Shown here piece after piece: positions 21,910 through 63,599 of a stretch of DNA of 64,000 bases (its first letter is position 1; each line of letters starts with the position of its first letter). Made by a program: the position numbers and the translations under genes. The notes beneath the pieces are model-generated. The model made no database searches. It had not been told where the DNA came from and saw only the letters and a program-made list of their open reading frames with translations. Source of the DNA: Strigamia acuminata (Eukaryota). The stretch is from the NCBI GenBank assembly GCA_949358305.1, contig OX442314.1:6448001-6512000 (forward strand), written 5' to 3'.

Positions 21910-24886
21910 TTACAAAAACGAATAATAAAAAGAATGAATAATGGAATAAAAACACAAATAAAAGAACATGAAACGTCTTGTTCTTCTTGTTCCCGCGATT
22001 AATGCTTGGGTCGGGGTCGTCGAACTTGCGCCCGACTGTTGCGCCTTCTTCAAGGCGCCGAGCGATACTGCGGTAGTTGCTCGAGTGGCAGGCGGAGGAG
22101 GAGCTCTCGCTGGTTGAGCTTTGGCACGTTCTTGTTGTGGAGTGGGCATGTAGGCCCACTCTCGTCGCAGACGAATTCCTGCGTCGTAGGGCCTTTCCCC
22201 ACGTGCCAATATCTGGCGCACCAATTCAGACCGGACCGCGGGTGGGTCCAGTCGGATCGAGTACCAAGCGTCCAGGTACTCTGGGGCTAAGCCCATCGGC
22301 GCTGACCACTGTGACGGTCATGACGTCATATTTAGTCCCAAGTTCACCGATAGATGGCGCTATTTCCCATTTCGGCGGGAAATTCGAATATACTTATTAT
22401 TTATGTGATGTTTATATAAAATTAAAGGTTTTATATAAATCCACGGTATTCCTAGATATTATATCATACTAGTATGATATATTTGAGTCTTTATTCCTCC
22501 AGTTGTGTTATGATTTGGACAAATTATAACAACACCTGGGCAAAAGGATTAAGTCACCCCTCACCACCCACAGTGTTTGAAGATACACTTTGAATTAAGA
22601 CAATAGCCTTAATTGCAAATGTGTCCTCCGTATCCACTTCCTGGGACAGACTTTGTAGAAGACTATGTCCCCTGTATCCACTTCCTATTTACTAGGATTG
22701 GACAGTTTGGAGTGACCAGTGTTCCTATTGGAGCAATGGCCACTCATTCTTCTCTCTGAGTATATAACCCGGTGTAAACCGAAAATAGCTCGCTCTTGTT
22801 TTTGTTTTTCTGTTTGATACTTACTTGAGCCCATATTCTACGCTTCGCTTCGCTTCGCTTCATGCCAACATTCCGTTGTAGGGGCACGTGCATTAAATTC
22901 TGTGCTCAACCCTTTTCCCGTACTTCATGCCAACATTCCGTTGTAGGGGCACGTGCAGTAAAATGCCGTGCTCAATTCCTTTTCCAACGAGACATTAGGG
23001 TCAAACCTAGTGTTGGATTGACGTGAGCGCCATTGATTCAATTCTGGGCTGGTTGTACTTTGGTGCAACAGAATCGACAGGGTCTTTTCATAATCGTTTT
23101 ATTTATACAGGTTTTAGTTATGTTTGGTTATTAGATTATTTGTAATTTAATAATTCAATTCATACCTTTGTTTGTTTGGATTTATTCGTAAATTCAACAT
23201 GATTTTCGAAGTCTAACTTTGAGTAACTTATATTTATGGTTATTTTGATAATCATAAACAGACCAATTGATAAATATCTACGAATAGATATTTAAACCAA
23301 TGGTCACCCAAAGTTGTGACGATGCGGCAAAGTCAACCGCACTTCTCGGATAATTTAGTTACACAGAACCAACCGAAGCAGACGACAATCAGTCCGATTG
23401 CAGACGACACCTTTTACGCCCGAAATAAGAACTTTACACACTCTTATTTCAAGGCTGAACACAACTGTTAGCGTTACTTTAGGGCTTTTGAGCCACTCGT
23501 TTGTATAGCTAGTTACACTCATATTTTACTGGCCATTTTGTCGGCCATAGTTATTATATAACTTATTTTTGACTTGAATAAATGTTCTATGTTTTGAGAA
23601 ACATAAACGCTTCATTCTTTGCACTTTACTACACTCTGCAGTTTCACTTGTCCTTTTAGCATTAATTCCTATCCCGGGTAGTCATCGTCACACCACAAGT
23701 ACGAGGCCGCGGCCAAAGCTTGTCGGTGCGACTCGAAAACGCCAGGAAATAATAATCTGGTTAGTCCGGAGACTAATTCACGTTGTAACGGATTTAGCCT
23801 ACGATGGTTGACATCCGTAATCCCCAAGTGGCTGAGCTTTCCCGCCACTCGTTGCCAACTCTTGATGGCTTCGGCAATCTGAGTGTTCTGGTAGGACTCT
23901 AGCTCAAGAAGTATTTGCATTTGTATTTGACTGGAATACTTCTCGCATTGATTCCAGTGCGTCCGAAAAAACTCGTCAAAGTACGGATCCGGTTCCATAC
24001 TTCGAAATTCTCCTTTCGGACGATTAGTGTGTTCCGGGATGGGCACACCAAACTTGGCAGCGGTGCTGCCGATCACTCTGCGCATCGCGTTGGGAGGGAT
24101 CGGAGTTTCCGGAAGGTATTCCATTTGCTTCACTTCAGCTTGGTAGTCTCCCATCGACAGGTCGGAGTCTGACGAGGGTGCCGGCGAACAACCTTTCTCA
24201 GGTGCGGGTGGCGTTGGGCAGCACAGTGACTCGTTGGACCAGTCTCCACGACACATTGACAGTGCGTTCGCCTCCCATTCGTCGATTTTGTCAGGCATTG
24301 GCTTATCGGCCGGTTCTTGCTTCGGCGGAGGTCGTGCCAACGGAGCTTCGGGTTGGCTGGCCTCGTGGAGTGATGGTGTGGACGAATCGGACTGATAAAT
24401 TTCGTCCAAGTCCTGTTCGGTCGTTTCGTCGCTGGATGCGGACTAGTCTTGTTTAGGGACTGGAGTTTCCTCTTTAGGAACAGGCCGGCGCTGCAATGGC
24501 ATTCCTAATTTCTCTTCAAAAAAAAGAAGTTCCTCTTGAGCCTCCTGCTCTTCGATGAGTCGCTGTTCCACGATGGCTCGAGCGACTGCTCTTTTCAACT
24601 TTTGGGACGTGGAGCGACTTGCGGTGGTCACGGCCGGGTCGTCCATGTCAATCGAGTCCGGGTGGAAAGGCGACGGGACCTCGATTACTTCTTCTCCGTA
24701 AAACGGAAGGGATTCGTGGGCCTCGTGCTCCTCGGCAAGTTGACGTTTTGGGGCGACTTGAGCTGCTATTTGAGCGGCCGCTTTCCGCGCCCTTGGCGAT
24801 GTGAAGTGACCCAAAGTGGTGATCACTTGTTTGCCCAACGCGATATGAGTTAAAATATCGGATGGTGATTCCTGACTTTGTTCAGC
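21910..24886 (-). pseudogene. Element A 3' accessory gene, ~530 codons once solo LTR E is removed; one in-frame TAG; unknown function
   Basis: 24886-23693 joins 22305-21910 in frame (AASYLW|SAPMGLAPEY); TAG at 24443-24445 is in frame; acceptor TTTTTATTCGCCAG ends at 24887; candidate donor ATG|GTAAAT at 25182/25181. Confidence 0.7.
22310..23692 (+). mobile_element. Solo LTR E
   Basis: TGTGACGG...TCGTCACA termini, 4-bp TSD CCAC (22306-22309, 23693-23696), TATA-like box near 22761 and AATAAA near 23577; removal restores the host ORF. Confidence 0.88.
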
Positions 24887-25607
24887 CTGGCGAATAAAAA
24901 TAATTACTAATTATGTTTGTAAAAACAATTATTTAAAAATAAATTGATTTAAGTTCGTCAAAACTTAGTTTTTTGTTGCTATTTTTTATACTAGCTCACC
25001 TACGAGTTGTCACGGCAACTCCCTCTTTCATGTTCAGAGTCGCGATCACGTGACTCGCGTCATCTTGCTAATTATAGCAATCAGTGCAATTTTCGACGTG
25101 AAATTCAAATTTCTTTGAATTCTCCGTGAAATATGCACTGAGTTTATAATATAAATAAAAAGTTTAGTTCAAATTATTTACCATTGTCAGATTTCGGGAC
25201 TTGATGCCTGTCAAGCGTCCCTTTCCTGCTTCGCATTGGTTAGACATCAAAACTTGTCCGTTTTCTGTGGAAATTGAAATTTTCTTTCATAGAAAGAAAG
25301 AAAACAATGAGAATGAATAATTGAAAGCAACTTTCATTCAGAAAAAACTACTTACAGTAAGTTTTTCTTTGTAATGATCGGGACGCAAGTTGAATACTTG
25401 TTGGCTTGATCACGCTACTTCGAAAAGTGGAATAATCCAATCTCCGGAGTAGAAGAATTATGTTAGTGATATGAAATGTTGTCACTAATTATCACCGTTT
25501 GGTTAACGTTTATTAGGTGATGACCGATCAACTCTGCATCACAGAGATGATTTTTGAGTTGGGTAAGCTCAAAGGATGGAATACAAAGTTCACTCTCGAT
25601 TTGAGGA

Positions 25608-26321
25608 TTAAACTTTGATTTTTGAAAAATAAACAAACTTGTACAAACTATCGGGTGAGTTGTTTAGTTTATTTTTTAATGTTTTCATTGCTAAAAACAT
25701 TTTCTTCTTTTTTATGACCATGTCTCTAAGTCGACACGACATCGGCGTGATCTCCGTGTGAAATTCTACATCTTTGTTGATTTCAGCTTTTACCGGAAAC
25801 TCGGATATTTTTGCGCCGTTTGTCGTAATTATGATTTTGTCGGGTTCTCGACCGACTTTTTTTTGTTTTTGTATCTTGAAAAGTGGAGGAGGATTATTGT
25901 TAAAAGTTTCAACTATCCTGCTTTCACTTCGTTGTAAATTTTTTGAAGTTTTAATAAAAGACTTCCTTTGTATTTTATCTAGTAATTTGTCGGTCACTAG
26001 CGTCGTTAAATTAATTAATTTAATAAAATCTTTGATTCCTTGAACATCTGAAATCAGAGGTGGTCTGTAATTTAAATTTTTCTTCATCAAAATTTCAACG
26101 ATGGAAGAGGTTTGTTTAGCCAATCTTTTGAGAATTAACTTTTCAAATTTAGCTATTTTAGAGGGTGTTTTTACACTTGTCCAATTGATTTTTAAGGAAT
26201 TCAAACTTTTTAATTCCTTCGTGATTCCTTCCATCATTTTCAGATTTTGTTTCAGATTTTCCGATTCTTTAGAAAACGCAGTATTCACTAGACCGGGTGA
26301 ATCTGCGTCTATAAGTTTTTT
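25608..26321 (-). CDS. Element A ORF2, reached by -1 frameshift from gag; Lys-rich, no pol motifs
   Basis: Slippery A_AAA_AAC at 26321-26315 just before the gag stop; the -1 frame is open into ORF 25608-26288. Confidence 0.6.
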   Translation of the reverse strand, partial: KKLIDADSPGLVNTAFSKESENLKQNLKMMEGITKELKSLNSLKINWTSVKTPSKIAKFEKLILKRLAKQTSSIVEILMKKNLNYRPPLISDVQGIKDFIKLINLTTLVTDKLLDKIQRKSFIKTSKNLQRSESRIVETFNNNPPPLFKIQKQKKVGREPDKIIITTNGAKISEFPVKAEINKDVEFHTEITPMSCRLRDMVIKKKKMFLAMKTLKNKLNNSPDSLYKFVYFSKIKV

Positions 26322-27040
26322 CGAATAAGCTTATTTAGATTTCTTATAGCTTCTTCGAAATCAGCTACTATCGTATTTTTGTCACTTTCTTCTAGTGGAC
26401 AAATCTCTTGCCAATGACCACGAGTATTGCATATACTGCATGGATTGGGCATTGGAGCTCTGTCTGCTGCGGTAGGTAAGGCCATTTGATTTGTTGTAGT
26501 TGGAAAGGACCGGCGAGAACGAGTACTGGTTTCAGTTGGTTCTCTGGATGCTATAAGTGGTTTCGAATTCTTATTCGGTTTCACTTTTTTGGTGCCAAAT
26601 GTAACTTTTTTCTGTGTTACATTTGGTCTGAATTTTCCGGCTACTGGTCCATTTTTTGTTATTAGGACAGTATCGATGCTATCTAATCCTATTTCTTCAG
26701 TCTCCTCTCGGGGACTGATTGCTTTTGTCTTCATTAAATGAGGTAACTTCTTTAAAATAAAACGAGAAGTTTTTAAATCATTTTTCTGTTTAATTCATTC
26801 AGGACAGTTGTTTCCTCCTGCGGAATGTGTAAAGGAAACTTTAGTTTTTCCCTTTTGGTCATATTCTGCACTTGAACATGTATTTCCTTTAGCATTTAGA
26901 TGCGCCCTTTTGGCTGCACTTAGGCAAGCTTCATATCTTTCGTTCAAATGAACCTGATTTTCCAGCAGAAATTTCACTGTTTTTGAAATCTCTCCATAAT
27001 TAGGTGCATCGGGTAAGAGTAATAGTTTGCTGAAATAGTA

Positions 27041-28658
27041 CAGTGGGGGGCAAAAGTAAGTTTACAACAGCTACTTTCAAAGTTAAGGGCTTATATCTTT
27101 AAAAATAATAATGCTAGAACCATGAAAATTTAATCCTGTATTTATTAAATGTGTACCATTATTCAATTAAATTTTCAGAATTTTTATTCTATTGGTTTTT
27201 AAATAAAAAAAAAATTTCAAAACCAAACCGAAAAATGATGGGCAAAATTAAGTTTACAAATGACATTAGAGGGCAAAAATTATCAAAACACACAAACTGA
27301 GGATGTGGAAAATGAACACACGCAGTCTAATTTGCATATTAGACACACTGACGTTTTGAATGCAGCTCTAAAAGTTTTACAGAGAAAAATGGTGAAAACA
27401 AGAGAGTTATCGCTGACTGAAAGAGCAGCTCTAATAAAAGACCGCTTGGACCTTAATTTGACCTACAGGCAATTAGAGAAGAAGTATGAAATAACAGCAA
27501 TGGGTGTCCAAAAGATAATTAAAAAGTTTGAAACTACTGGACAGATTATTAGTGCAAAGAGAAGTGGCAGAAAACCAAAGTTCACTGAGAGAGAGCGGAA
27601 AACTGTTATAAGAGCAATCAAAAAAAATCCAAGCACAACTAGAAGAGAAATTCGAGAAGAATTTAAAGATCAATTCAATAAAGACATATCAAGGAGGCAG
27701 ATTACAAGAGAATTACGAAAGGAGGGATATAAAGGAAGAAGAGCACGCCAAAAACCCTACATCTCTCCTAAAAACAAAAAAAGGAGATTGGAATTTGCTC
27801 TCAAATATGTTGATAAACCACTCAAATTTTGGGAGTCTGTGATGTGGAGTGACGAAAGCAAGTTCACCCTGTTGAAACAAAGGAAGAAAACAGTGTACAG
27901 AAAGGATGGGACTGCATTCAACAGAAAGCATGTGCAGCCAACAATTAAGCATCCACCCTCTGTCATGGTCTGGGGTTGTTTTGCCAACAGTGCAACTGGA
28001 AATTTGCAGTTCATTGATGGAATTATGGATAGTAAGAAGTATAAAGACATTTTAGAAATTAATTTGGCTCCATCCAAGATAAAGCTGGGGTTAAAAAGAT
28101 GGTGGCATTTTCAACAAGACAATGACCCCAAGCATAAATCGAAACTTCTGACTGCCTATTTTGCCTTTAAGAAGATTAGTGTGCTTGATTGGCCCTCCCA
28201 GTCACCCGATCTCAACCCCATCGAGCATCTATGGGAGATTTTGGACAATCGGGTGCCTTTAGCAAGTCGCACAAACATTCCTGCATTCAAAGTTGCTTTG
28301 CAGGATGTTTGGAGTAAAATCCCTCCCAATGTGTTGCTGAATCTGGTTCACAGTATGCCACGACGACTCCGAGATGTTCTTAGGGCCAAGGAAGGCCCAA
28401 CAAAATATTAAGTGTATTATTTATAAGTTTTTTATTCATTTGTAAACTTAATTTTGCCCATCATTTTTCGGTTTGGTTTTGAAATTTTTTTTTTATTTAA
28501 AAACCAATAGAATAAAAATTCTGAAAATTTAATTGAATAATGGTACACATTTAGTGAATACAGGATTAAATTTTCATGGTTCTAGCATTATTATTTTTAA
28601 AGATATAAGTCCTTAACTTTGAAAGTAGCTGTTGTAAACTTACTTTTGCCTCCCACTG
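27041..28658 (+). mobile_element. Tc1-family DNA transposon, IR/DR type, apparently intact
   Basis: TA TSD (27039-27040, 28659-28660); ~220-bp near-identical TIRs starting CAGTGG; internal direct repeats GGGCAAAA(G/T)TAAGTTTACAA near 27048 and 27241. Confidence 0.95.
27389..28411 (+). CDS. Tc1 transposase, DD34E (340 aa from MVKTRELS; an upstream in-frame ATG lies at 27260)
   Basis: HTH region, GRKPK AT-hook, WSDESKF, QQDNDPKH, WPSQSPDLNPIEHLW; 34 residues counted between D and E. Confidence 0.95.
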   Translation: MVKTRELSLTERAALIKDRLDLNLTYRQLEKKYEITAMGVQKIIKKFETTGQIISAKRSGRKPKFTERERKTVIRAIKKNPSTTRREIREEFKDQFNKDISRRQITRELRKEGYKGRRARQKPYISPKNKKRRLEFALKYVDKPLKFWESVMWSDESKFTLLKQRKKTVYRKDGTAFNRKHVQPTIKHPPSVMVWGCFANSATGNLQFIDGIMDSKKYKDILEINLAPSKIKLGLKRWWHFQQDNDPKHKSKLLTAYFAFKKISVLDWPSQSPDLNPIEHLWEILDNRVPLASRTNIPAFKVALQDVWSKIPPNVLLNLVHSMPRRLRDVLRAKEGPTKY

Positions 28659-29585
28659 TATGTTAAACCATTTCGAAATTTTTCGTCAACTGTGGCATCG
28701 TCAGGTTGAGGAGTCATTTGCCACAGTATTTCTTCCCTTCGACGTAGGTAAGAGCGTAGCCCTTCTCCTTTTTCTTGCTTTAAATTTTTCCAAAGCAAGA
28801 GAATGTCTTCGAATGGTTCCGGGAATGTGTACATAAATTCTCTTACAAACACATTCCAATTAGTAAACTTTTTTCTTCTAAACCAATCTCTGGCTTTACC
28901 TATCAAGGCACGTGGTACTAATTTGTTAAGCGTGTCTTGAGGTCCACAGCCGTGTTTTTGGGCTATGTTTAAAATTTCATCTAGAAAACTGGATCCAATT
29001 GACCATTCTCCATTAAAAATGGGAGGAGACATTTGATCCCAACGAATATATTTTTCGTTGACTCTTGGATGCGTCCAGTTTACAGACGCGAAATTGTCAA
29101 TTTTGCGCAGAATGTATTCTTCACGTTGATCATCTTGTTCGAAGTTATCGACGTCTTCGTCAATGTAAAAAGGTGTAGATGGACCTTTTTTGTGTATCCT
29201 AACTCTAGGTTGACTTCTCTGGTTTACTAGAGAGGAGTCTTCTGTGACCGGAAATTTATTCAAACTTTCATTTGTCGGAAAAGAGTAGTCAAGTTGCTTG
29301 TCGTTTGTAGTTAAACAAACTTTCCTTTCTGCAAGTTCTCCTTCCGTAGATTTATTAACGGTTACGTTAATATTACCGTCATTTTTTAATAGATCATTAA
29401 CGTCGACTTGATCTTCTTGATTCATTTTCTCCCTGGATGAGTCGTCAGACGACTCGGGTTGATCGGCGATTACTTCACAGGGGGTGTCAAGTATATTTTG
29501 TAGATTGTCGCTAATTTCACTTAAGCGATCTAAATCTCTTAAAATTTTCTTTGTAGCGTTGTTCCGAGATGTGTGTGCTGATTTT

Positions 29586-32500
29586 TGTGACGGTGACGAC
29601 CACAACTCCCATTTAACAATGGTACCGGGAATAGATCGCAATAGAATAACAGTGAATATAATACGAGATAAATACAAGACAGTTTATTGTTGGCAAACAA
29701 TATGAATGAACTAGATTATACATAGGACTAATGCCGACATTTGGCAAGTTAACTTACTAATTAAACTATACATCAAATTGGCCAATTGGCCCTAAAATAA
29801 TATCATTATGTGTCGAAGATGCGGGAGCGGTTTCCACATCGCTCGACCTGTTTTACAGATGTCATCTAAGCCGGATGGCTGTCTCCTGGAGTCCGATACG
29901 GCTTCACTGGTTCCTTGGTTCGCTTGTGTAAATTATCGCACGTCGATAAATCGAGAGATCTGAGAGATGCGGTTGACTCATGTGCACCGCCACAACTTTA
30001 GGTTGGATATTGGTGTAAGTAAATGTATTCATTTACTTATCAATATTCCGATTATGAATTATATTTAATTCATAAGTGTTGTGAGTTTTCTACTGGATAT
30101 TTCGTCGATAAGTTGTCGTCAACTTATTTATCCCATTGAGTTCAATGTATTCGTGTTTTAAGTCTTCTGACTTGATTAATTAACTTGTTGCCAAGTTAAT
30201 ATTGTTCTGTCGTAAATGTAAAGGATAAATGTTAGACTTCCCGTCGCAACACACAATTGCCGTCGATAGAAAACGCCTTGCCATGCAGAACGGTATCAAG
30301 CGTCCCCTGCGCCGCAACACGGTCGTTCGTCTAGCGATTGACGGTATTACGTACACAGGAGTCGATAGCTCGCGGCTCCGCACAGCAGTTTAGTCCTTCG
30401 CGGTACTAATAACAAAACGACTGCTTTGGCACCAAATACCATGTGACGATTCTACTTTTGGCTGATTTATTAGCCATTTAACAAGATAAATCGGTCGGAA
30501 CAAGACGTTGTTAAGACTAACAACAACCTAACCGAGATAAGCTACGAAATGTGCGCTAAATGAATAAATGACCAAATAATACGTACTTACGATTTTACCT
30601 GCTTGTTTCTACGAATACAAATGGTTCGGGGTTCTGGTTACGTGTAAACGGGCGGCTACACTGGTTGAGGATCCGGGCGATGCTCGAAGGGTACGGCTGA
30701 CTTTGCGGCATCGTCACAAATAACGCTACGGAGACGTATTCGGCTCCGCAGCACGAACGACTTTGAATGCGAAGAATCCTTCGCATTCGCCGAGATCTAA
30801 ATTTGCTGATCATTCAATCGAATGATTCAGACTTCGAATATAACTAGAACTATAAAAATGCAACAAATAAAAGTTAGATATTATTTTTATGGGCGGGGAC
30901 AGTCACGATAGTCGAGGGGACCATCGCGGGAGGTTTTGACACCTCCATCCGCCAGCATGCCTTACGACGTCGAGATCTCGTGATCAGGCGCCGGGTAATT
31001 AATTAATGGATATACCATTTAGTGGATTTACCAGTATCCAAGTAGTTTGTTTAGCACGGTATTTTGTATACCGTTCACGGGCTACCAACCCGGAGCAACT
31101 ACATTATATTAGACCTTCACCGACCTTTAACGTACGGAAGGGCCAGCCATAGAAAGACTGGGACCTGAGAGATTGCGGCACATGATTGTCCATAACAACC
31201 ATCCTTACCGCGACCATGGGCCAGTTAGTTGAGGGGCCCACTTTCATCTGGCAAGGCCAACTGTATATAAACATTATACTATGTCACCGTACGAAATCCT
31301 ACTGCTCCTTAGAGCAGCTGGCTAATCGCTACGGGACCATTTGTTTACCGGAGTTAGTCTTCCCGAAATGACGCTACAACAACAATATCCATTAGGATGA
31401 GAGTCGAGGGGGCCTGATGTGTCGATAAGAAAGAGAGAAATCAAACGATAACCAACAATACATACAAACATTATTCAGAGCAAGCCAGGGGGGTGGTAGA
31501 AAACCAGAGCTTATATAGTTCTGGAGAACAATCAGATTGGCGATAGCCAATCAGGTGCCTGAATCGACGGATTCGTGGATCACTAGTCCGGACCTAATAT
31601 AGACTGGGGTTCGGACCTAATATGAAATTGGGTCAAGAAGGGTCCGATTGGTCCCCTTCAACAAGTAAATATAAAATATAATATTGATTCGGTAGAATCA
31701 ATTGTTTAAGTAAATAATACTTTATCATGTTTAATAAATATCTTATATTTATTCACATCATTATAACAATTAATTATAATTGTCGCAATTCATTCGAAAA
31801 TGCGCGCTTTTAATCAAATAGCGCCGTCTGGCGATAAATCTGGGAAAATACGGTTTTATAACCGTCACAACCATGAGAATCAGCTTGCCAAACACTTGGT
31901 GCTACTCGTGGTTACTGTGAAACAGACTGCTTTGGCACCATCAGGTGAAGGAACCAACTCTCAACAGTCCCGGTGCTTACTCGCGGTTACGAGATGCGTT
32001 CATACCGAAAATGACCACTCAGTCCTGCCCGGAGGATACTGAATTGCACAGAAGGCAGGTTCTTCTCGGCGAGACCGTAAATTGAAACATGTATGCAACA
32101 TAACAATCCAATACGTCGGCTTCAATTGCCGGTGGTTGCATGATTCTGTAGAATCATGCAGCGGTTCTTTGTGAATAAATCATCAAAGAACCAAGTGGTT
32201 TTTCATGGACAACGAATCATATTTCTTAAGTAATAATACCAAACAGAAATAATCAAAACAGAGCCGCGGGATGGCCGGTTGTTTGGGTTTATATAACCTG
32301 ACTGGATTAGGGATTAATCCAATCAACCAATTGGAACATGGGTTCCACGAATCCCTCCAATCCCGTATCACCGGAAGTGGATACGGAGGAGCAATATGCT
32401 AATTCTCACCACAACCGGAACTGGATACCCAGGACCGGAAATGGATCCACCAATCACATCGGTCGGTTGATCGATTGATCGCCAAATCTCCTTTTCTGCT

Positions 32501-32758
32501 GAACTAGAGATTCAATTCACTTATTGTGAATAATAACCATTAATATATATTTATATTAATACGAAAATAAGCTTTGTTTATTCTAATAAATATATTCTTA
32601 TATTTATTTTACCAGTTTTTAACTCGTAATTTGAATTTACCGCTGAAACGTAATCGCGCCATCTAGTGGCGACTTGAAGCATTGACAAATGCGGGTTTTG
32701 CCGAAAACTACTAAAATTCAGCCGTGTTATTAATAAATACCACCTACAAACCGTCATA
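29586..32758 (-). repeat. 3' LTR of element B, interrupted by solo LTR D
   Basis: Matches 44283-46023 with only a handful of substitutions. Confidence 0.92.
30442..31869 (-). mobile_element. Solo LTR D
   Basis: TGTGACGA...CCGTCACA termini, TSD ACCA (30438-30441, 31870-31873); empty site AAATACCATGAGAAT is present in the other B LTR at ~45131. Confidence 0.9.
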
Positions 32759-32870
32759 CATCCCCCTTAATCACTCAACTTAGGAATTCTTTTCATAAGT
32801 TTATGTTATTCTTGCGAAATGACTTTATTAATATCTCAAAAACAGGACTTTTTTCATCCCGAACAACTGA

Positions 32871-48736: not shown

Positions 48737-48740
48737 GTGT

Positions 48741-53990: not shown

Positions 53991-54809
53991 TGTGGTGACC
54001 CAGTTGGATAGGTGTCCCCCCAGGGCGGATACTTGTCCTCTGAGTCACTATGATTGAAGAGTCGTTCCCCCCGAGTTGGCTCCACCTCCCCATGGCAGGT
54101 GTGTGCCCCGAGGGGGAGGAAGCGGCTGGTGGTCAGCCCCCATTGGTTGATCGCCGGCCCTTCACCCCACTGCATAAAAGGCTGTGTTTCCCGCCTAAAG
54201 TCAGAACTTACACAAACGACACCAAGAACACAGCAACTACCTCACCGTCAGGCCAACTTCAACTACAAGTTAGGATTGATCGAGGATCGCTGAGTAAAGT
54301 GCAAACTGTAACTCTCACGAAGTCACTTGCGAGCTATTCCTGCGAAAGCACGAGAATAGCCCTTGTGAAATCACCCAGAATAATCGCCCAGTCGATTATT
54401 CGCCGAAGTAAGTGTCCGAGTGCTTTGTAGGGAACCCCAAAGTTCCTAGACGAGGCCTCTGCGACGCTAAACCAAACCCTAGACAACAGGCACGGATAGA
54501 AGACTCGAAAGAGCATTCCACCGCGTTCGTGAAGACGAATCCGTGACGAATTAACGACAACTCGAGACGCCGCCTTTGTTCCGCCGACCACGCGGAACCG
54601 ACGACGCCATCTTGAGAAATCCTTTGTTCGACTTTGACCAAGTCGACTTTAGTTGTATACTGAGTGTATTTTAAAGGCATAAAGCCTGGTGAATAAATTA
54701 CCTGTTTATTTACATACATTTGGTATTCATTTGGGTATTTGCATAATTGATCACAGGTAAAGTATTACACGTTAGCGCTATTTAAACCTATACCAAGTAG
54801 GACGCGACA
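53991..54809 (+). repeat. 5' LTR of element C (819 bp; left boundary inferred)
   Basis: TGTGGTGACCC...CGCGACA followed by the PBS; termini match element A; no second copy in the window. Confidence 0.75.
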
Positions 54810-54811: not shown

Positions 54812-54829
54812 TGGGGGCCTGTCCGGGAT
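54812..54829 (+). promoter_or_regulatory. Primer-binding site of element C, tRNA-Pro-like
   Basis: TGGGGGCCTGTCCGGGAT. Confidence 0.85.
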
Positions 54830-54903
54830 TTAGAAATAAATCTCAAATCTGAACTTGTGATCTCTCAATAAGATAACCCAAATCGTAGAATTACCGAAAG
54901 AAA

Positions 54904-57900
54904 ATGTCAGACAAAGATGAACAATCCGCGTCTGAAACCGAGCAGAGAATGCCCGAGAAGGGAAAAAGGACCTCCGACTACCACCTAAGGTCGGATGGTC
55001 CAGTCCCTGAAATGTCCGCAAAGGCGAAAGCCCGAGCGAACAAAAGGAGAGCGAAGGCGCAGAAAGAGGAGCAAGCTGCATCGCTCGCGGCCCTAGACGG
55101 GCGAGAGCGAGAGCGGGTTCCCTTGAATATGCAAACCTTCGAAGATACCGATACGGAAGCCCTAGAAAATCGAGAAGAAATTCACGACGTATCACCGGGA
55201 CGAGTATCGATATTAATGGCCGAGGAGACGAATGCAACTCCAAAGAAAACGGCCACGGTCGGCACGAACCCATCGCCACCAACGGCTCAGACGTCCGTAG
55301 AGCAAACCCCACGGAAAAACGACGGCGGGACCCCGATAACCCCCCGAGTTACGGCGAGTCCTGCAGTTGTTTCCTTCGAAGTATCTCACCTAATTCGGTT
55401 GACGCAGCAAGCTGCCCAACTGAAAGCGATGATAGACATTCCAGTAGGAACGTCAGTCTGGGAATCGATTACTCTACTCACTGACGCTGTCTGTGCGGCA
55501 CAAGCCCCGACGCCGGTCGCAAGACCAGCAGCGGAGACGCCCATGCCCCAGGTAACGCCCAGTGACACCGGAGGTTTCGTACCAGACCCCAGCAAAGCCC
55601 TTCGCGAATCCAGAGAGAAAGCCCGCGAAGAAGCCAGACAAGAGGCAATTAATCGCCAACGAAGGCTGAGCGCGGAAAGACGAGAACTCTGGAAAGAAGA
55701 GGAAGAAAGGGAACAGCGTGAAGAAAGGACCACCGAGAGAACAGAGAAACTGGTCCAAAAAATGAGGGAAGAACGAGAAGCTAAAATTCGAAAAGAATGG
55801 AACGCCACAGTAGAAGGGCGACATCGAGAAGCTCAAGAGTACGAGGACCAATTTCAAGCCCTCATAGCTCAAAGAAAAGCAGAAAAGCTACAAATGTTGC
55901 GAAAAGAAGCCATTTTACAACATCAGAAATGGGAAGAACAGCATCGCGAGAGGTTAAGAGAAGAGGAAGCCAGAAAAGAAAAAGAACAGTTTCTGAAAGA
56001 GAAAGAAGAATGGGAACGAGACAGATGGACCGAAGAGTACAAAGCGAAGAAGCAAGCCATAATAGATGAGCAAAAAAGATGGGAAGCCGAAAACTAGGAA
56101 AAAGAAACAGAAAAGTTCCAAAAAGAGTACGAACAAGACGTTTCGGACAGGAAGAAAAAGGAAGAAAACCTGAAACGGAAATCAGAACCCCCCAGCGGCT
56201 CTGATACCGACACAGGAGAAGATGCAACAAAGCCGGCAAAAACGGCGAAAAAGGGGAAATCTCAAAAGAGAGACGAGTCGGTCCCAAAAACAAAGGACCG
56301 TCACCCCTCAAAAAGATCCGAGACGGGAGCAGCCATCGACGCGTTACTCGAAAAGAAAAACGCGAATAAAAACCGGGAACGCCCCGAAAGCGAGGAAAAC
56401 AGATGGCATTCTTTTTACGAGAACAACGACGGAGAGGAGCCGCCGCCATCCGGAGGCTCGAAACAGAAGAAGGCTGGCGGGGAGACCCCACCGAGAGGGC
56501 CGAGGTTTCACCCCCAAGGAGATCCCTCCGAGCCCTCCGATTCGTCGGACGACGACCATCCGAGTCGACCGTCTACAGGGAGGAGTCGAGAGGGCAGCGA
56601 CGGGCACCGGTCGAACCGGCCGAATGCCTCGAACCGCTCTTCCCGGAGCTCCAACCCTCGCTCGCAGGAAGGAAACTTTCAGGACTCATCTGGCCGCCAT
56701 TACACGATGGCTGAGCTAGGCCGAGCCCTGCTGAACTCTTTCAGAAGAGAAGGGATCGATCTAGGCCATCCAGGCGACGAGCATAACCGCGCAGGAGAAA
56801 GGGTTAAGCGCAAATATGGCGTACGCAACGAACCAAGCGGTGAAGCCACGGGTAACATCCGCTGGCAGCACTATATTCAAACGCGATTTGACGGTTCGTG
56901 GAAGGCCGGAGACCGCTTCCTGGACGAAGTGATGCGTATCAAGAAAGCGACAAAAGCCACCGTCGCCGACATGCTAACCCACGGTCTGGTGGAACTAACC
57001 ACGGGATCAGCTCGAGAATGGTATCAGGGTCTAAAAAACCCAACCTGGGACGATTTTCTCGTCCGTTTCGATCTCCGATACGGCGAGACTCCAGACGAGA
57101 TCAGTAACAAATTACGTGGTCTACGACAAGCCCCAGGAGAAACATTAGCCGACTACGACGCCCGAGCGAAACTACTGTTTGCAAGAGCGCCGTATGAAAT
57201 AAACCCCGCTGGTTTTACGATGATCTTTTACGGAGGATTATCGGCCCACTCGCAAAGAATTCTGCTAGACATGCGTGCACCCCGCACTGGCGATTACCAA
57301 GATGTCAGTAACTATCTTCTAACAAACACGTTAGAAATAGAACAGCGATATTACGCCACTCTGCCCCCGGAAGAAGCTGACGCGCACGAGAAACGGTTGC
57401 AGACGAGCGCCGAACGTCACAAGACCTCAGAGAAATTAATGAGGCCAAGTGAATATTTGAGCGGCATAATGAGTCTCACCGAGGCGTCCTCCGGACGGAT
57501 GCTGACGTCTAAAGCAGGCAATACTCTTCCAGCCAACCCGATAGCTGCCCCAAAGACAGCACCGGCAGCGACGGCGATGCAGGTGACCTCGACGGACTCC
57601 ACCCAGGTGGAGAAAGTCGAAGAAACAACACCTCTCGCCACGACTAAAGAAGAGGAGCCAGCGTCGAGCGACAAGGAAGCCCTAAATGAGCACCTCGAAA
57701 ACTTATCAACGGGATGCGACGATCAAGGTCCCTATTTGCACCACGCGCACCGAGCCCTAGCGATCGCACAATTCAGAGCGCACGTGCAGGCAACAAAAGC
57801 GAGAGGGGCATTGGGAGGAAAAAGACGATTCCCGACGCCCTTCGTCCCGAAAAAACCGGGATTCACTCCCACAGGGAATAAAAGTAACATCAAATGTTAT

Positions 57901-58044
57901 AGCTGCGGAGAATACGGTCACTATTCAGACAAATGCGAAAAAACCGTCAAAGAAAAAGACATCATGCAAAGCATGATGAAAATGATGATGGAGTTAAATA
58001 CTAATCTGGCAAAAAACTCCCAAGCGCAGGCGTCGCCGAAATAA
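54904..58044 (+). CDS. gag: Element C gag, ~1046 codons with a single in-frame TAG at 56095-56097; long coiled-coil N-terminal region
   Basis: Frame stays open from 56098 into ORF 56707; LTTGSAREWY...LRQAPGETLADY gag domain; knuckle CYSCGEYGHYSDKC. Confidence 0.88.
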
Positions 58045-61000
58045 ATTCAGCTTCGTCTGCGCCAGCCGCGGAAATTAAAAAGAAGAAATATCACACTGGA
58101 CCCGCAGGTCATGCCCTGGCAGAAGCACAGATCAAAGATCGCATACAGACCGTTCCGAAGAAGGAAGAAAAAGTGACGTTGACGGGTATGCAAGTGAAAA
58201 CGAAATCGGACGTCGACATGGATTGGACGGACCTACCGTTCAATCTGGAGGTCGAGCCGCAAAAACTACGCGTATTTCACTGCCACGTCACGAAAGCACA
58301 TTGCGAAACTCTGTGTATGCTACCAGTGGAAATAGAGAATCAGAAACTGTTTGGTCTGCTAGACTCGGGAGCGGACCGCTCATTCATATCCGAAGACATA
58401 GTGAAGGATTTGGATATCGAAAAAAAAATGGCACAAGTAAACGCGAACGTAGAACTACTCACCGCCAACGGTTACGTCAAGCCAAAAGGCGTAGTTCGCG
58501 TCACTATCGACTGGAAGGGGGGAAACCTGTCCCACCCCTTCATAGTCTTGCCATCCAACGACAAAGTATTCCTCCTCGGGATGGATATCATGGCAAAACT
58601 GAAAATTCAGCCGAACCCGATAACCCGTTCATGGAACTGGATAAGTCCCGAGGGAGAACGGCCCGTCCCCGTAGTTCCCCAAAAATTACTGGACGAAGCC
58701 AAGGACAAAGAGGAATACGGACGAGGATTGCAAAAATTCGTCCAAGATTACGATTTCGCAGCCTTCACTCTGGAATTGCAGAGGAGTAACGTCGTGGAAA
58801 CATTAGTCGAGGAAGCAGCACTGCGTGTTAACGAGGCATCGCTACTGAGGCGAGTGCTTCGAAAACATGAAAGAATTCTGACCAAGACACCTGGTCGAAC
58901 AACTGAAGCAGTGCACGAAATAGTCTTGACCACGGACAAGCCGATTAGAGTGCCTTACAAGGGGATGAACCCCCAAAAAAGGGACATTGTGACGCAAATG
59001 TGCCAAGACATGCTCGACAAGGGCATAGTAACGCAAGCCCTGGGCAAATACGCCATGCGGATCGCCCTGGTAATGCGTCCAGGCTCGGAACCTCGACTAT
59101 GCATTGATTATCGCCCCCTGAACGCGATAACAGTTATAGACCCGATTCAGATGCCGTCTATAGACTCGATTCTCCGGGAGCTGAGCCCATTCAAGTGGGT
59201 AACCACCATGGACCTGTCAAAGGGGTATTGGCAAGTGGAGCTCAAACCCGAAGACAAACTGAAAACGGCTTTCTACTCCCCGATAGGAAGATTAATGTTC
59301 AACGTGATGCCGTTCGGGCTTGTAAACGCCCCGAGCACGTTCCAGAAATTGATCGAAAGCGTGTTGGGAGATATGCTTCACGACTTCGTGTGGGCGTATC
59401 TCGACGACATCATAATAACGTCGGACACATTCGAAGAGCATATAGACCACATCGATAGAGTGGTCTCTCGCCTAGCCAAGGCGGGACTCCACATCCATCC
59501 AGGGAAGAGCAAGTTTTGCAGAAAAGAGCTTGCCTTCCTAGGATATCGAATAGGAGTCGAGGGAATCGCGATTGACCCCGAAAAGGTCAAAGCAATAAAC
59601 GGATTCCCCGCCCCCGAAGATATAAAAGGTGTCCAGAGATTTATGGGCATGGTCAATTTCTTCGGCCGACTACTTGCTGGTCTGGCTGAGGTGGCCGCGC
59701 CTATAACGGATCTCTTACGAACGTATAAAGAATTTGAGTGGACGGTCCAGTGCGAGGCCGCATTTAGCACCATCAAGCAAATGCTGGCTGACGTCGAAAA
59801 GATGCCATTGCCGGACCTAAACCGACCGTTCGTGTTGCACACCGACGCGAGTCAAATCGGACTGGGTGCAGCCCTTCTGCAGACCCACGTGTACAACGGA
59901 ACCCCGCAAGAAGTACCCTGCATGTTTATAAGCAGAAAAATACAGGGCGCGGAGAAAAATTACACGGCAACGGAACTGGAGTGCCTAGCAGTAATTTGGG
60001 CAGTTCGGAAATTTCGCGATTATCTGGAGTACACGAACTTCGAGGTTCAGACCGATCACCAGGCACTAAGCTGGTTGATGAAACTCAAAGAACTTTCAGG
60101 CCGACTCGCGCGATGGCAACTGGAGTTAATGGCGTGCGACATAACAATTACGTACCGCCCCGGGAAGTACAATCATGTGGCCGACGCCCTCTCGAGAGCC
60201 CCCGCGTCCGACCCCCAAGGTCCAGACGACGACGGCGAGGACGACACCCATCTCTTGTACTGCCCAACTCCACGGAGAATATGGCACTTGCGGAAAGCGA
60301 ACGAGCTACCAGTGATGGAGCCCGAAGATAGAACGTTTTGTGGTTTTTGGACCCGAACGTACCAGCCAGCTGGGACGAGCGATGCAACATCCGAAATTCA
60401 ACCTCCGCCCCCCGGAGAGACCCACAAAGCACTACTACGCGCCTTCACAACAAAAATTGAAGAAAAGACGCAATACGCTCCACCCACGAGACGTGAGTTC
60501 GTCGAACACCAGGCAGCCGACACAAAATGTCAAATTATAACGCAATATTTGCTAAACGGCGAATTTCCGGAAGGGATGACAAACCCACACCGCCGGAAAC
60601 AGTTCGTCAAAGAAGCAACAAGCTACCTCATAGATGATGAACTCCTGGTAAAATACCACCCGACGTTTCAAGATGACCTCAGCGGAGCGGGAAACTCGGT
60701 GAAAGTGGTCGTACCGGCATCGCTGCACACCCGACTGTTGTGGCTGATGCACGGACACCCGCTCGCCAGCCATTCCGGCGTGGCGAGGACCCTTTATCGA
60801 GTAAAACAACTTTTCTTCTGGCCGGGCGCGCGGCAAAAGATAACGAAATTTATCCGACACTGCCCCCGGTGCCAAGCGTGCAGACCGCGAGATAAAGTGG
60901 CCAGAAACGCCATGTCTCTCGGACCCTACGCACCGTTTGACTGCTTAAGCATAGACTTGATGGGCCCCAAGCCCACAACGGGAAACAGGAACATGTATAT

Positions 61001-62147
61001 TCTCGTAATTATGGACGTGGCCACCCGATGGCCGGAGCTGTACGCCCTCGTGAAGCCCTCGGCTGAAAACATAGTCGAGTGCCTTTACGACGTGGCAATG
61101 CGATTTGGGTTTTCCAGAAAACTCATTTCGGATAACGGCCCCCAATTCCGATCAAGAATATATAAGGACTTCTGTAGAAAATTTAGAATGGATGCATCGA
61201 ACACCTCCACGTATAATCCTCAGACAAATCCAGTCGAGAGATTAAATAAAGACATAAAATATGCGCTGACAGTATTCACCGATATTCACAATCGATGGGA
61301 CGAATACCTGCGAGAAATCGCTTTCAGCATTCGCTCAACCGTGTCAAGAACACGCGAATTCTCACCGGCGTACCTCAACTTCGCCCGCGAATTAAGGATG
61401 CCATGGGACCCACGCGTTGCCGAAGCTGTTAACGTATTAGACCCATCGAGCCCACATGAGTACGTGTGCCGGTTGGAACAGACTATATCCGACACATACC
61501 AGCATATGATGGCGCATATTTTCAACATGAGAGAGAGAATCGCAGATAAAGAAGGCGATCTCGCTTTCGCGAACTTTAAAGTGAATGATCTAGTGTGGAA
61601 GGAGGCACACACGTTGTCCAATGCAGCGAGGGGCATCGCCGCGGGTTTAGCCGACAAGAGGGACGGTCCCTATGTAATTGTGGCCGAACACGGCGGCAAC
61701 GCATACCAACTGCGCCGCTTAGAGGACAACAAAAATTTTCAGTCGATACATGGCCGAGATTTAAGGCCATATCTGCCAGAGTTTCCCCAAGAAATCTGGC
61801 TGGAAGGTCAGACACACAGCGGCCAAGGGGGCACCGTGGTCGACACGTTCCAAAAACCAAATGAAGCTGAAAATGTAGCGGAGAGCGAGGATGAATTTTT
61901 CGACGCCGAATCCCCAGCCGACGAGGCTCCAGCTCAGCCGGAGCAAGCAATTTCGGAGAGGGAGGAAGCAGAAGAATGTACTTCTGAAATGGAAAATAAA
62001 AAAATTAATAATGAGAAAAATGCCAACACATCGGAGATGAACGAGCAAGTAGAGTCACGATCTACCAGCATGTCGAAAATCAACCTTCGACCACGACGAA
62101 GCAATAATCCGTTCATTCGGGACGGCAAAGTCGTGGGGAAGAACTAA
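58017..62147 (+). CDS. pol: Element C pol (PR-RT-RNase H-IN), intact, entered by -1 frameshift
   Basis: LLDSGA, YLDD, HTDAS, TDHQAL, HHCC zinc finger, SDNGPQF, GPY motif; A_AAA_AAC at 58011-58017 with the -1 frame open to 58173. Confidence 0.96.
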   Translation, partial: LPSAGVAEINSASSAPAAEIKKKKYHTGPAGHALAEAQIKDRIQTVPKKEEKVTLTGMQVKTKSDVDMDWTDLPFNLEVEPQKLRVFHCHVTKAHCETLCMLPVEIENQKLFGLLDSGADRSFISEDIVKDLDIEKKMAQVNANVELLTANGYVKPKGVVRVTIDWKGGNLSHPFIVLPSNDKVFLLGMDIMAKLKIQPNPITRSWNWISPEGERPVPVVPQKLLDEAKDKEEYGRGLQKFVQDYDFAAFTLELQRSNVVETLVEEAALRVNEASLLRRVLRKHERILTKTPGRTTEAVHEIVLTTDKPIRVPYKGMNPQKRDIVTQMCQDMLDKGIVTQALGKYAMRIALVMRPGSEPRLCIDYRPLNAITVIDPIQMPSIDSILRELSPFKWVTTMDLSKGYWQVELKPEDKLKTAFYSPIGRLMFNVMPFGLVNAPSTFQKLIESVLGDMLHDFVWAYLDDIIITSDTFEEHIDHIDRVVSRLAKAGLHIHPGKSKFCRKELAFLGYRIGVEGIAIDPEKVKAINGFPAPEDIKGVQRFMGMVNFFGRLLAGLAEVAAPITDLLRTYKEFEWTVQCEAAFSTIKQMLADVEKMPLPDLNRPFVLHTDASQIGLGAALLQTHVYNGTPQEVPCMFISRKIQGAEKNYTATELECLAVIWAVRKFRDYLEYTNFEVQTDHQALSWLMKLKELSGRLARWQLELMACDITITYRPGKYNHVADALSRAPASDPQGPDDDGEDDTHLLYCPTPRRIWHLRKANELPVMEPEDRTFCGFWTRTYQPAGTSDATSEIQPPPPGETHKALLRAFTTKIEEKTQYAPPTRREFVEHQAADTKCQIITQYLLNGEFPEGMTNPHRRKQFVKEATSYLIDDELLVKYHPTFQDDLSGAGNSVKVVVPASLHTRLLWLMHGHPLASHSGVARTLYRVKQLFFWPGARQKITKFIRHCPRCQACRPRDKVARNAMSLGPYAPFDCLSIDLMGPKPTTGNRNMYILVIMDVATRWPELYALVKPSAENIVECLYDVAMRFGFSRKLISDNGPQFRSRIYKDFCRKFRMDASNTSTYNPQTNPVERLNKDIKYALTVFTDIHNRWDEYLREIAFSIRSTVSRTREFSPAYLNFARELRMPWDPRVAEAVNVLDPSSPHEYVCRLEQTISDTYQHMMAHIFNMRERIADKEGDLAFANFKVNDLVWKEAHTLSNAARGIAAGLADKRDGPYVIVAEHGGNAYQLRRLEDNKNFQSIHGRDLRPYLPEFPQEIWLEGQTHSGQGGTVVDTFQKPNEAENVAESEDEFFDAESPADEAPAQPEQAISEREEAEECTSEMENKKINNEKNANTSEMNEQVESRSTSMSKINLRPRRSNNPFIRDGKVVGKN

Positions 62148-62525
62148 AAATAAAAAGAAAATGTGATAACATGGAGCGGAGGCCTTGTAAAATAAAAAGA
62201 TTTACTTACGAGAGCCGCTGCACATGTTGAGACGCGAAAATTTGGCTAAGTCCAAACTTCGCAACGAATTGTCGCAGTCACCACTAACAGACGAGAAGTT
62301 ATAACGTATTGGGCGACCACGTGACAATGAAACCACGCGGTCGACCCCGTAGCGTCATTGCCAGCACGGCGGATCTCGCAAAGCACGAGACGCGTTCGAG
62401 ACCCACAATTCTCAGCGTCGATAGGCCTAGTTTCCGACTGTTTTTAACAGGAAGAGACGTGTCTTTCGCTTCTCCCCCAGAGAAAGCCGAAAAACCTCTC
62501 AAAACCTTCAATTTTGTGATTTAAA

Positions 62526-63599
62526 ATGGCCGATCGACGAAACCCACGATTAGAGCCGAGCGCATCGTCGAGAGACGAGAGCGACGGCCTAATCGTGAAC
62601 GCTGAAGATGATGAGAATTGGGACGAACAACCGCCGTTGCTGGTAAATTAATGTGATTTCCCCAGAGAAATCACATAGTTCTTTGAATCTGTTGCATCCA
62701 ACCCAAATTGGAGCGTGACTTGTGACTGATATATTTCTTTCTGTTTTATTGTTGATTTAAGGCTGGCTAAAAACCCGAGAGTGGACCCAGATTCACCTCG
62801 GAGTCAAGGCCGCCAAAAAACCAGAACAAAGGAAGTGTTCGCGGAATGGCGTCGTGGCAAACCAAAACCAAAACTAAAGGTTTTCTTTCTTTTAAAATTA
62901 AACATCGTAATAAATTAAAATACGATTAGAGTTAAAATAAAAAGTTTAACGTAAAATTAAGAATTTAACGATCGGTTTTGCCTGCGACCCCTTCCTGAAG
63001 CGGACTACCTGAGTTCAAAAAGTAGTGTTGGATCAGCGCTACGACGGCGGAGATCATCGCAGAACTGCGAAACAAGAAAATAAGACCGACGGCCGCAGCA
63101 AAAGAAAGGAGTTGCTGCCACCGTCGATCTTGAGCATATTTCTGATCCCCATCGTTAACTGGGATTTATTATATTAATCTTGTGATCTAAAATTATTCAG
63201 GTCGACCCGCTAGAATCGTGGGACGCCCTGCCTTCGACGGTGTCAACCGCCAACAACATCTTTCGTGGAGCCCTGCCGATTTACCTGCGGCAGGCCTATC
63301 CTGCGGAGACCAGCGCCTGGAAAATCCGATTGATGTATTCCAGGACCCTCGAGGAAAAATTCGAGCGATCGAAGACGCTGGTCGAGTGCATGACGAAGGA
63401 GATGAGGGAGCGAGTGGGGCCGCGGATCCCACCTGATGCGGATCCGCCGAGCCCCGTTTACTCCGAGTATCTGGAAGAGGCTTACCCAGGCACGGTGGCC
63501 GAGCTGCACACCTCCCACAGGTGGCGCGAGGCCCCGACCATGGCAGCCCGCCAGAGAATAGTGGACGACGAGATCGAACGCTTAAAGTGTTGGTTTTAG
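62526..63599 (+). CDS. Element C 3' accessory gene, predicted spliced (62526-62642 + 63201-63599, ~171 aa)
   Basis: ATG...CTG|GTAAAT donor and TTATTCAG|GTC acceptor are both phase 0; acidic N-terminus; motif repeat IYLRQAYP / EYLEEAYP. Confidence 0.6.

What the first reader, a model, noticed from the sequence alone, without database searches (positions are those of the whole stretch)
21910..63599. Three Gypsy-type elements each carry an apparently spliced, non-env accessory gene at the env position
Seen: A (~530 codons, 24886-21910 after removing solo LTR E), B (559 aa, 35968-34289) and C (~171 aa, 62526-63599) each have a sense-strand ORF in the 3' internal region, each preceded by a canonical acceptor. 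A and C have the same candidate donor G|GTAAAT. None shows a signal peptide or transmembrane helix, and all have charged or disordered N-termini. Known: errantivirus env is expressed from spliced mRNA but is a membrane protein. Inference: this may be a lineage of retrotransposons with fast-evolving intracellular accessory proteins, for example silencing suppressors or trans-activators.
Basis: partly seen in the sequence, partly recalled or inferred. Interest (0 to 1): 0.85.

Follow-up and report, generated by a model that had tools for sequence, protein, structure and literature searches.

The report
Three unrelated accessory genes in retrotransposons
Three related jumping genes in this animal genome each carry a different extra, non-membrane gene where a virus would keep its envelope gene; one has relatives only in centipede jumping genes and likely makes a zinc-binding nuclear protein that would help the element's own RNA get out of the nucleus.

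Summary
B and C are Ty3/Gypsy elements of one clade; A is a gag-related relative with no pol. Each has a sense frame after pol or its slot, behind a strong acceptor, with frame-specific codon signal and no transmembrane segment. The three proteins are unrelated to each other. B's intact 559-aa protein found 2 hits among 1.84 billion proteins. Both are Strigamia (centipede) gene models that join B's closest integrase relatives to a 28-38% identical ORF3 with three conserved CxxC pairs, so ORF3-B is a clade-linked accessory gene. For C, 5 of 5 listed exon substitutions are third-position. Corrections: A's frame also has an in-frame stop, and the shared G|GTAAAT donor is weak evidence. Splicing and expression are untested (no RNA run listed), and both folds failed. 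Most likely function, inferred by analogy with C. elegans CERV: nuclear regulator of the element's unspliced RNA (0.4); anti-silencing or trans-activation is the main rival. Non-env ORF3s are a known kind, and this scan noted similar cases in other genomes (no sequence look-alikes). This protein family and A's pol-replacing ORF were not found in print.

The parts
47344..48736 (-). Element A 5' LTR; followed by a PBS (tRNA-Pro-like, label recalled) shared with C; candidate donor at 47380
   Evidence: LTR pair differs at 35 of 1362 sites, 2.6%; 4-bp target duplication ACAC
46030..47218 (-). A gag, first part (two overlapping frames), cut by insertion of element B
28640..29585 (-). A gag, capsid-like part
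   Evidence: Pfam Retrotrans_gag E 7e-5, below cut-off; 29% to C gag, 32% to B gag
26309..27038 (-). A gag end with CCHC knuckle and AAAAAAC slippery heptamer (26321-26315)
25608..26330 (-). A: 240-codon lysine-rich frame at the position where B and C start pol; no pol similarity
   Evidence: open-frame chance 1.7e-9; codon z 3.3; no Pfam, PDB or pol hit
25182..25247 (-). A: candidate first coding exon (ATG, 22 codons, phase 0, donor G|GTAAAT at 25181)
   Evidence: no codon signal detectable at this length (z 0.5); inferred
23693..24886 (-). A ORF3 main part, behind the acceptor at 24887; broken by an in-frame stop at 24445-24443
22310..23692 (-). Solo LTR E inserted in A ORF3
   Evidence: TG..CA ends, 4-bp duplication
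21910..22305 (-). A ORF3 last piece (codon signal only in 22305-22060)
20276..21876 (-). Element A 3' LTR (with a ~230-bp insert)
44283..46023 (-). Element B 5' LTR; PBS tRNA-Gln-like (label recalled); candidate donors at 44454 and 43953
   Evidence: LTR pair differs at 9 of 1741 sites; target duplication AAAA
36776..43484 (-). B gag (two overlapping frames), slippery heptamer 41077-41071, pol PR-RT-RH-IN with two in-frame stops
34289..35968 (-). B ORF3, intact 559 aa: basic N-terminus (KKRK at 7), Ser/Pro/Arg-rich linker, basic helix, three CxxC pairs (C239/242, C260/263, C298/301), C-terminal helical domain, acidic tail; acceptor at 35973
29586..32758 (-). Element B 3' LTR, split by a second solo LTR (~30442-31869)
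53991..54809 (+). Element C 5' LTR, candidate donors at 54408 and 54757; inserted in a host amiloride-sensitive channel exon
54889..62147 (+). C gag (one in-frame stop at 56095-56097), slippery heptamer 58011-58017, intact pol PR-RT-RH-IN
62526..62642 (+). C ORF3 candidate exon 1 (39 codons), 45 nt behind the strong acceptor at 62480
   Evidence: codon z 3.9; 4 of 4 listed substitutions third-position
62643..63200 (+). C ORF3 candidate intron; two GC-rich blocks without codon signal, one folding above chance
   Evidence: 4 of the 12 listed indels lie here
63201..63599 (+). C ORF3 candidate exon 2 (132 codons)
   Evidence: codon z 4.4; open-frame chance alone 0.012

Best explanation
[quoted passage not shown] Shown: the open frames, the codon signal, the lack of a transmembrane segment, the clade linkage of ORF3-B to centipede elements and its conserved CxxC pairs. 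Inferred: (1) a donor in the LTR or leader is joined to the strong acceptor in front of each ORF; (2) in A and C a short first coding exon is joined to a main exon; (3) strong splice sites would leave full-length gag-pol RNA with a retained intron, so a factor made from the spliced RNA would give the Rev/CERV feedback loop; (4) the basic helix plus zinc ribbon of B would contact RNA, and the N-terminal basic cluster would be the nuclear signal. A's and C's proteins are unrelated to B's and lack its motifs. They would be independent occupants of the same slot, and their function is less certain than B's. A, which lacks pol, would be a non-autonomous element that kept gag, a frameshift-fused 240-aa extension and ORF3.
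For: HMMER over 1.84e9 proteins with B aa 227-499: 2 hits, E 3e-23 and 4e-19, both Strigamia maritima models T1IH97 and T1IMA5 with Gypsy pol pieces in front. Those pieces are B's best matches among 125 stored proteins (integrase core 64.6% vs next 54.9%; C-terminal 60.0% vs 47.5%) and B's sisters in two trees (0.94, 0.97). All six CxxC cysteines, the basic helix and, in the one model that reaches it, the C-terminal domain are kept. The longer model also starts MG-basic...ESSS like B. B ORF3 is intact while B pol carries two stops. Top-scoring acceptors lie directly before all three ORFs, and donors at about the 99th percentile lie in the LTR or leader (47380, 43953, 54408). C: 5 of 5 listed exon substitutions are third-position, 4 of them synonymous (chance 0.004 for position). 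Precedent (PMC10309623: abstract, passages, section 15): CERV, 517 aa, env-position ORF, spliced, KRKK signal, Cys loop, no outside homologues, required for gRNA export.
Against: No RNA data: splicing, expression and localisation are unobserved, and none of the 15 of 47 joints shown in the two DNA-like runs had GT..AG ends. No homology to CERV was seen: the HMMER search returned no nematode protein. CERV shares exons with gag, whereas B appears to start at its own ATG. A and C pieces have no K[KR]x[KR] motif and no CxxC. Folded RNA is not clearly enriched in the spacers over the rest of the elements (7 of 22 vs 25 of 161 windows at z<=-3, p 0.07), so there is no specific support for a response element. 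C's synonymous share (4 of 5) is not significantly above gag+pol (12 of 30; p 0.16) and rests on 40 of 677 rows. A CxxC ribbon fits DNA or protein binding equally well. The Strigamia sequences are automatic gene models, and one runs on into a hydrophobic stretch at residue 831 (hydropathy 1.93), outside the region that matches B.
Confidence: 0.4

Rival explanations
1. The ORF3 proteins are nuclear anti-silencing factors or trans-activators that bind the element's DNA or chromatin (VANC-like or Tat/Tax-like in effect), rather than RNA-export factors.
For: Same basic N-terminus and zinc pairs. Long (0.8-1.7 kb), CpG-rich LTRs and ORFs (CpG o/e about 1.0-1.3 in most element parts). Strigamia methylates transposons, and a Copia family there captured a methyl-CpG domain (PMC6673714, passages). 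12 of 21 transitions between A's LTRs are at CpG. Fast, family-specific turnover fits an arms race (VANC and accessory proteins: PMC13547354, passages).
Against: No chromatin-reader or DNA-binding family above cut-off. Some host flanks are equally CpG-rich (o/e up to 1.21). The host's methylation state is unknown.
Confidence: 0.27
2. The proteins act in the cytoplasm, as particle-assembly or transport adaptors or as small-RNA suppressors, and each of the three may do a different job.
For: The three are unrelated. A and C lack nuclear-signal patterns. A kept ORF3 together with gag while lacking pol, which fits a gag partner. Bdelloid elements show several unrelated ORF3 types (PMC5408684, passages).
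Against: B has three basic clusters including an N-terminal KKRK. No nuclease or esterase family hit.
Confidence: 0.2
3. B is a real accessory gene, but A's and especially C's frames are decayed remnants or captured host sequence no longer under selection, and the proposed C intron is not spliced.
For: C's two frames are short (chance 0.21 and 0.012). C's internal acceptor is weak. A's copy is broken twice. No homologue was found for A or C, in limited searches.
Against: Frame-specific codon signal in A1, A2, A3a, C1 and C3. Third-position bias in C. Contigs of both runs cover C's ORF3 region. Sharp GC steps at the proposed boundaries (0.56/0.34 and 0.24/0.60).
Confidence: 0.1
4. They are divergent envelope or fusion proteins.
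For: Position and acceptor are those of env (PMC12992720, passages). A's frame as read ends in a mildly hydrophobic stretch.
Against: No 19-residue window above 1.27, hydrophilic N-termini, no env family in Pfam. A's tail lacks codon signal. The cysteines form CxxC pairs typical of zinc sites (established knowledge).
Confidence: 0.03

Closest known systems
CERV of Cer1 (C. elegans Gypsy/Ty3 element; PMC10309623)
   Same: ORF in the env position, no env likeness, similar size (517 vs 559 aa for B), basic nuclear-signal motif, cysteine cluster, host-lineage-restricted and fast-evolving; CERV comes from a spliced RNA, which is predicted here.
   Different: No sequence homology seen. CERV's first exons share the gag frame, whereas B seems to start at its own ATG. 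CERV has a G-protein-like domain, with none detected here. Function is shown for CERV and only inferred here.
Non-env ORF3s of bdelloid rotifer LTR elements Juno and Vesta (DEDDy, GDSL, coiled-coil, TM; PMC5408684)
   Same: Several unrelated ORF3s in one slot among related families; a non-autonomous family (TelKA2n) that lacks most of pol but keeps its ORF3.
   Different: Those ORF3s are mostly recognisable enzymes or membrane proteins; none of A, B, C hits such families.
Errantivirus env-F (PMC12992720) and MDG1-group sORF2 (PMC11952523)
   Same: env-F: third ORF after pol from a spliced RNA, in some subclades with a short upstream exon. sORF2 lies after pol in some Lepidoptera.
   Different: Both are membrane proteins. 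A, B and C have no transmembrane segment, and all are longer than sORF2 (63-107 aa).
Sense additional ORFs (aORF-3S) of plant LTR retrotransposons (PMC7264820)
   Same: [quoted passage not shown]
   Different: Plant hosts, often with TM segments; no homology tested or seen.
Strigamia maritima gene models T1IH97 and T1IMA5 (UniRef)
   Same: True homologues of B ORF3, fused by annotation to pol pieces of B's sister elements.
   Different: Annotated only as polymerase or retropepsin proteins; the ORF3 part is unnamed.

Membership tests
Ty3/Gypsy (Metaviridae) LTR retrotransposon | pol domain order PR-RT-RH-IN | tested here: met
   B and C, Pfam
Ty3/Gypsy (Metaviridae) LTR retrotransposon | paired LTRs, PBS, short target duplication | tested here: met
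   A and B; C has a 5' LTR and PBS, and its 3' LTR lies beyond the window
Ty3/Gypsy (Metaviridae) LTR retrotransposon | pol present (element A) | tested here: not met
   no pol remnant by tblastn; A is placed only by gag similarity, PBS, LTR start and slippery heptamer
A named Gypsy clade (Osvaldo, Gmr1, Mag, Cer1) | RT phylogeny with named reference elements | not testable with these tools
   best RT hits 40-45% and not assigned to named clades; trees hold no named references
Errantivirus env-F | signal peptide and C-terminal transmembrane anchor | tested here: not met
   hydropathy scan only, maxima 0.95, 1.27, 0.57; no dedicated signal-peptide predictor was available
Errantivirus env-F | homology to baculovirus F / env families | tested here: not met
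   Pfam, PDB, HMMER for B
Errantivirus env-F | furin site and fusion peptide | not tested
   not scanned in the window's proteins
CERV family | sequence homology to CERV | tested here: inconclusive
   no nematode hit for B core; CERV itself was not at hand for direct comparison; A and C were not run through that search
CERV family | basic nuclear signal and cysteine finger | tested here: met
   B only; absent by pattern in A and C
CERV family | spliced mRNA sharing 5' exons with gag | not testable with these tools
   no RNA holder listed; B has its own ATG behind the acceptor
CERV family | required for export of unspliced RNA | not testable with these tools
   needs experiment
sORF2/FAST-like fusogens | 63-107 aa, one TM helix, MGxxxS/T start | tested here: not met
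   lengths 171-559 aa, no TM; B's start does not fit the motif
Enzymatic ORF3 (DEDDy, GDSL) | detectable nuclease or esterase domain | tested here: not met
   Pfam none; profile-profile search against family libraries not available
DnaJ-type / Anti-TRAP zinc ribbon | repeated CxxCxGxG motifs | tested here: inconclusive
   three CxxC pairs with partial glycine pattern; Anti-TRAP E 0.038, DnaJ_CXXCXGXG E 8, all below cut-off

The most novel reading that the evidence does not exclude
A myriapod-associated Gypsy clade behaves like complex retroviruses. It has an exchangeable, spliced regulatory slot that has been filled at least three times by unrelated soluble proteins, among them a new zinc-ribbon family that is the first arthropod counterpart of Rev/CERV. 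It also has non-autonomous members that replaced pol with a new frameshift-fused protein and keep the regulator.
Probability: 0.3. Interest if true: 0.75.

Novelty: new variant of a known kind. Interest (0 to 1): 0.52.

Why it matters
How LTR elements with strong splice sites get unspliced RNA out of the nucleus, or past host silencing, is answered for very few animal elements (CERV is the element-encoded export factor that turned up). An intact, conserved, soluble 559-aa candidate from an arthropod clade can be tested directly. Three unrelated genes in one slot would show that the env position is a general-purpose accessory cassette. The finding also flags an unnamed protein family hidden in Strigamia annotation.

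Tried and rejected
No own genome was held, so copies could not be collected. No RNA holder was listed, which is not evidence either way. Word-based homologue searches missed B ORF3, and so did the atlas; no atlas answer was obtained for C. PDB sequence searches gave only non-significant rows (SerRS E 0.15, 91, 92, 93). AlphaFold on B aa 227-499 alone (pLDDT 36) and with the 3-row alignment (pLDDT 34) was unusable, and Foldseek on the latter had no match at E<=0.001. A homodimer-plus-zinc prediction returned no answer. Scans of viral and metagenome contigs for pol or ORF3 relatives found none; the single locus is a 19-residue chance match in a phage-like contig and was rejected. A suspected A-C similarity was rejected (shuffle p 0.13-0.75). 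The idea that C's two GC-rich intron blocks are extra coding exons found no codon signal (z 1.0-1.2). Rfam: 0 matches in 20000-64000. The five hairpin folds (z -2.9 to -4.9) were picked for low z and are not a test. Variation across copies was seen for C only, as 40 of 677 substitution rows and 12 of 24 indel rows, so dN/dS for A, B and C stays open.
Full report
Anatomy. Self-comparison and end inspection resolve a nest. Element A (minus strand, 48736-20276; LTRs 2.6% apart) contains element B (46023-29586; LTRs differ at 9 of 1741 sites), a Tc1 element (27039-28660) and solo LTR E. Element C (plus strand, from 53991) runs off the window. B and C have gag and pol in the Gypsy order PR-RT-RH-IN. 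B's pol has two in-frame stops; C's pol is intact and its gag has one stop. A has gag related to both and shares its PBS and LTR start with C, but shows no pol remnant. All three carry AAAAAAC at the end of gag. In A this site leads into a 240-codon lysine-rich frame with no match. The host is an animal (NPAS4-type bHLH exon and ASC channel exon). An arthropod, possibly a myriapod, is inferred from the nearest named relatives of B.

Are the third ORFs real? B: 559 codons, chance 6e-13. A: pieces of 147, 250 and 131 codons separated by an in-frame stop and the solo LTR. C: 39 and 132 codons, individually unremarkable (0.21, 0.012). I trained a codon model on B and C gag/pol and scored frames with stops ignored. 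It gave the annotated frame the top score and z 3.7-7.8 for A1, A2, the first part of A3, B, C1 and C3. Five non-coding controls gave z 0.9-2.9 with no clear frame preference. A's candidate first exon, A's last 49 codons and C's two GC-rich intron blocks gave no signal. Two runs of unrecorded kind cover the unique flank without differences, so they behave as DNA and may be the source sample. Single contigs inside C reach depths over 100 times the flank contig, which points to a large family, although the tool warns that depth is no copy number. Of 677 substitution rows 40 were shown and 35 were classed (the row in a stop codon and four non-coding rows were left out). In C's ORF3 exons 5 of 5 are third-position and 4 synonymous, against 5 of 11 synonymous in gag and 7 of 19 in pol. 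The position bias has chance 0.004; the synonymous excess is not significant (p 0.16). Of 24 indel rows 12 were shown: none in gag, pol or the two exons, four in the proposed intron (within the 3' part alone, p 0.20).

Splicing. This is a prediction only. On a crude score, the acceptors in front of the three ORFs are the best in their spacers and at or above the 99th percentile, and strong donors lie near the LTR end or in the leader. This is the layout of a subgenomic RNA like env-F (PMC12992720, four passages). A and C additionally fit a short ATG exon joined in phase 0 to a main exon, a layout recalled from Tat and Rev. Against this: the shared heptamer occurs 16 times in the window, A has a stronger competing donor at 24999, C's internal acceptor is weak, and none of 15 joints shown (of 47) has GT..AG ends.

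What the proteins are. They are unrelated to each other and lack transmembrane segments. Pfam, PDB, a word-based search and the atlas gave nothing significant for B. Full HMMER with B aa 227-499 gave exactly two proteins, the Strigamia maritima models T1IH97 and T1IMA5. In both, Gypsy pol pieces precede the matching region. Those pieces are B's closest relatives among 125 stored proteins and its sisters in trees of two integrase parts (113 and 87 of 127 sequences kept; support 0.94 and 0.97). An unnamed pol and then C come next (0.995 in the C-terminal tree, 0.76 in the other). An RT-RH tree of 120 sequences also groups B, C and that pol (0.96); the other sequences were C's own search hits, with no named references. 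ORF3 identity is 28-38% against 50-65% in integrase and protease. The alignment keeps a basic helix, three CxxC pairs with a WATCP motif and, in the longer model, a C-terminal helical block; the models have one further CxxC that B lacks. Weak, sub-threshold Pfam rows point to zinc ribbons. A and C pieces did not match these models and could be searched only shallowly. Folding failed.

Mechanism. The best-supported reading is a spliced accessory cassette. For function I commit to a CERV/Rev-like nuclear RNA regulator for B (0.4). The reasons are that strong splice sites create the export problem, and that B shares CERV's position, size, basic signal, cysteine cluster and host-restricted divergence (PMC10309623: abstract, 12 passages, section 15; its supplementary alignments were not seen and could bear on homology). 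This is analogy, not membership. The search for a response element was inconclusive: the elements fold better than three flank regions overall, but the spacers are not clearly special (p 0.07). The rivals are anti-silencing or trans-activation (0.27; Strigamia methylates transposons, PMC6673714, 12 passages), cytoplasmic or mixed roles (0.2), decay of A and C (0.1) and env (0.03).

Comparison and novelty. Non-env third ORFs are known: bdelloid elements (PMC5408684, 12 passages), plant aORFs (PMC7264820, 8 passages), MDG1 sORFs (PMC11952523, 12 passages) and CERV. VANC context is from PMC13547354 (12 passages); PMC2238898 (3 passages) did not help to name the clade. Searches for a centipede or myriapod Gypsy third ORF found no such paper: 0 papers; 3; 36 with at least three of four terms, 20 listed, judged by title and start of abstract; 0; 1, Troyka, listing only; subscription journals are mostly not covered. 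The scan's own notes hold similar orphan ORF3 cases in other genomes but no sequence look-alike. Verdict: a new variant of a known kind, with one undescribed, testable protein family and an unusual pol-less member; interest 0.52.

Noticed in passing
window 25608-26330 (-): In pol-less element A the conserved AAAAAAC frameshift site leads into a 240-codon lysine-rich frame unrelated to pol, so it may be a fourth gene fused to Gag.
   Followed up: partly
window 53715-54044 (-): Host amiloride-sensitive channel (ASC/DEG-ENaC) coding stretch at C's insertion site; both runs hold a contig over this flank and the first bases of the LTR without differences.
   Followed up: partly
window 9734-10054 (-): NPAS4/dysfusion-type bHLH exon (Pfam E 1e-23), flanked by many different AT-rich tandem arrays with units of about 8-35 bp (3000-14700).
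   Followed up: partly
window 27039-28660 (+): Tc1/mariner element with 225-bp inverted repeats and an open 390-codon transposase frame, inserted in A's gag.
   Followed up: no
window 1232-2215 and 32866-33900: Two related near-perfect hairpin elements (arms 460-480 bp, 98-99% complementary; 85% alike to each other) with a tRNA-like stretch in the arms by eye; no Rfam match for the second at gathering score.
   Followed up: no
window 15572-17546 and 48737-50570: Long inverted repeats about 33 kb apart enclose element A, so A appears to sit inside a large inverted-repeat DNA element.
   Followed up: no
window 51060-51590 (+): Short broken frame resembling a Copia-type gag start (resemblance recalled, not tested).
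   Followed up: no
window 63679-64000: Summed contig depth falls about 10- to 30-fold just after C's ORF3 stop in both runs, so this copy's 3' untranslated region may be a minority variant of the family.
   Followed up: no
window 62460-62500 (+) and 25141-25082 (-): C's strong acceptor is predicted to pair into a hairpin with the sequence just behind it, and a long hairpin lies ~40 nt behind A's candidate donor; either could tune splicing (windows were picked for low z).
   Followed up: partly
window 22310-23692 and 30442-31869: Two different ~1.4-kb solo LTRs with TGTGAC...GTCACA ends, sharing only short patches with B's LTR, point to at least two further families of the same kind.
   Followed up: partly
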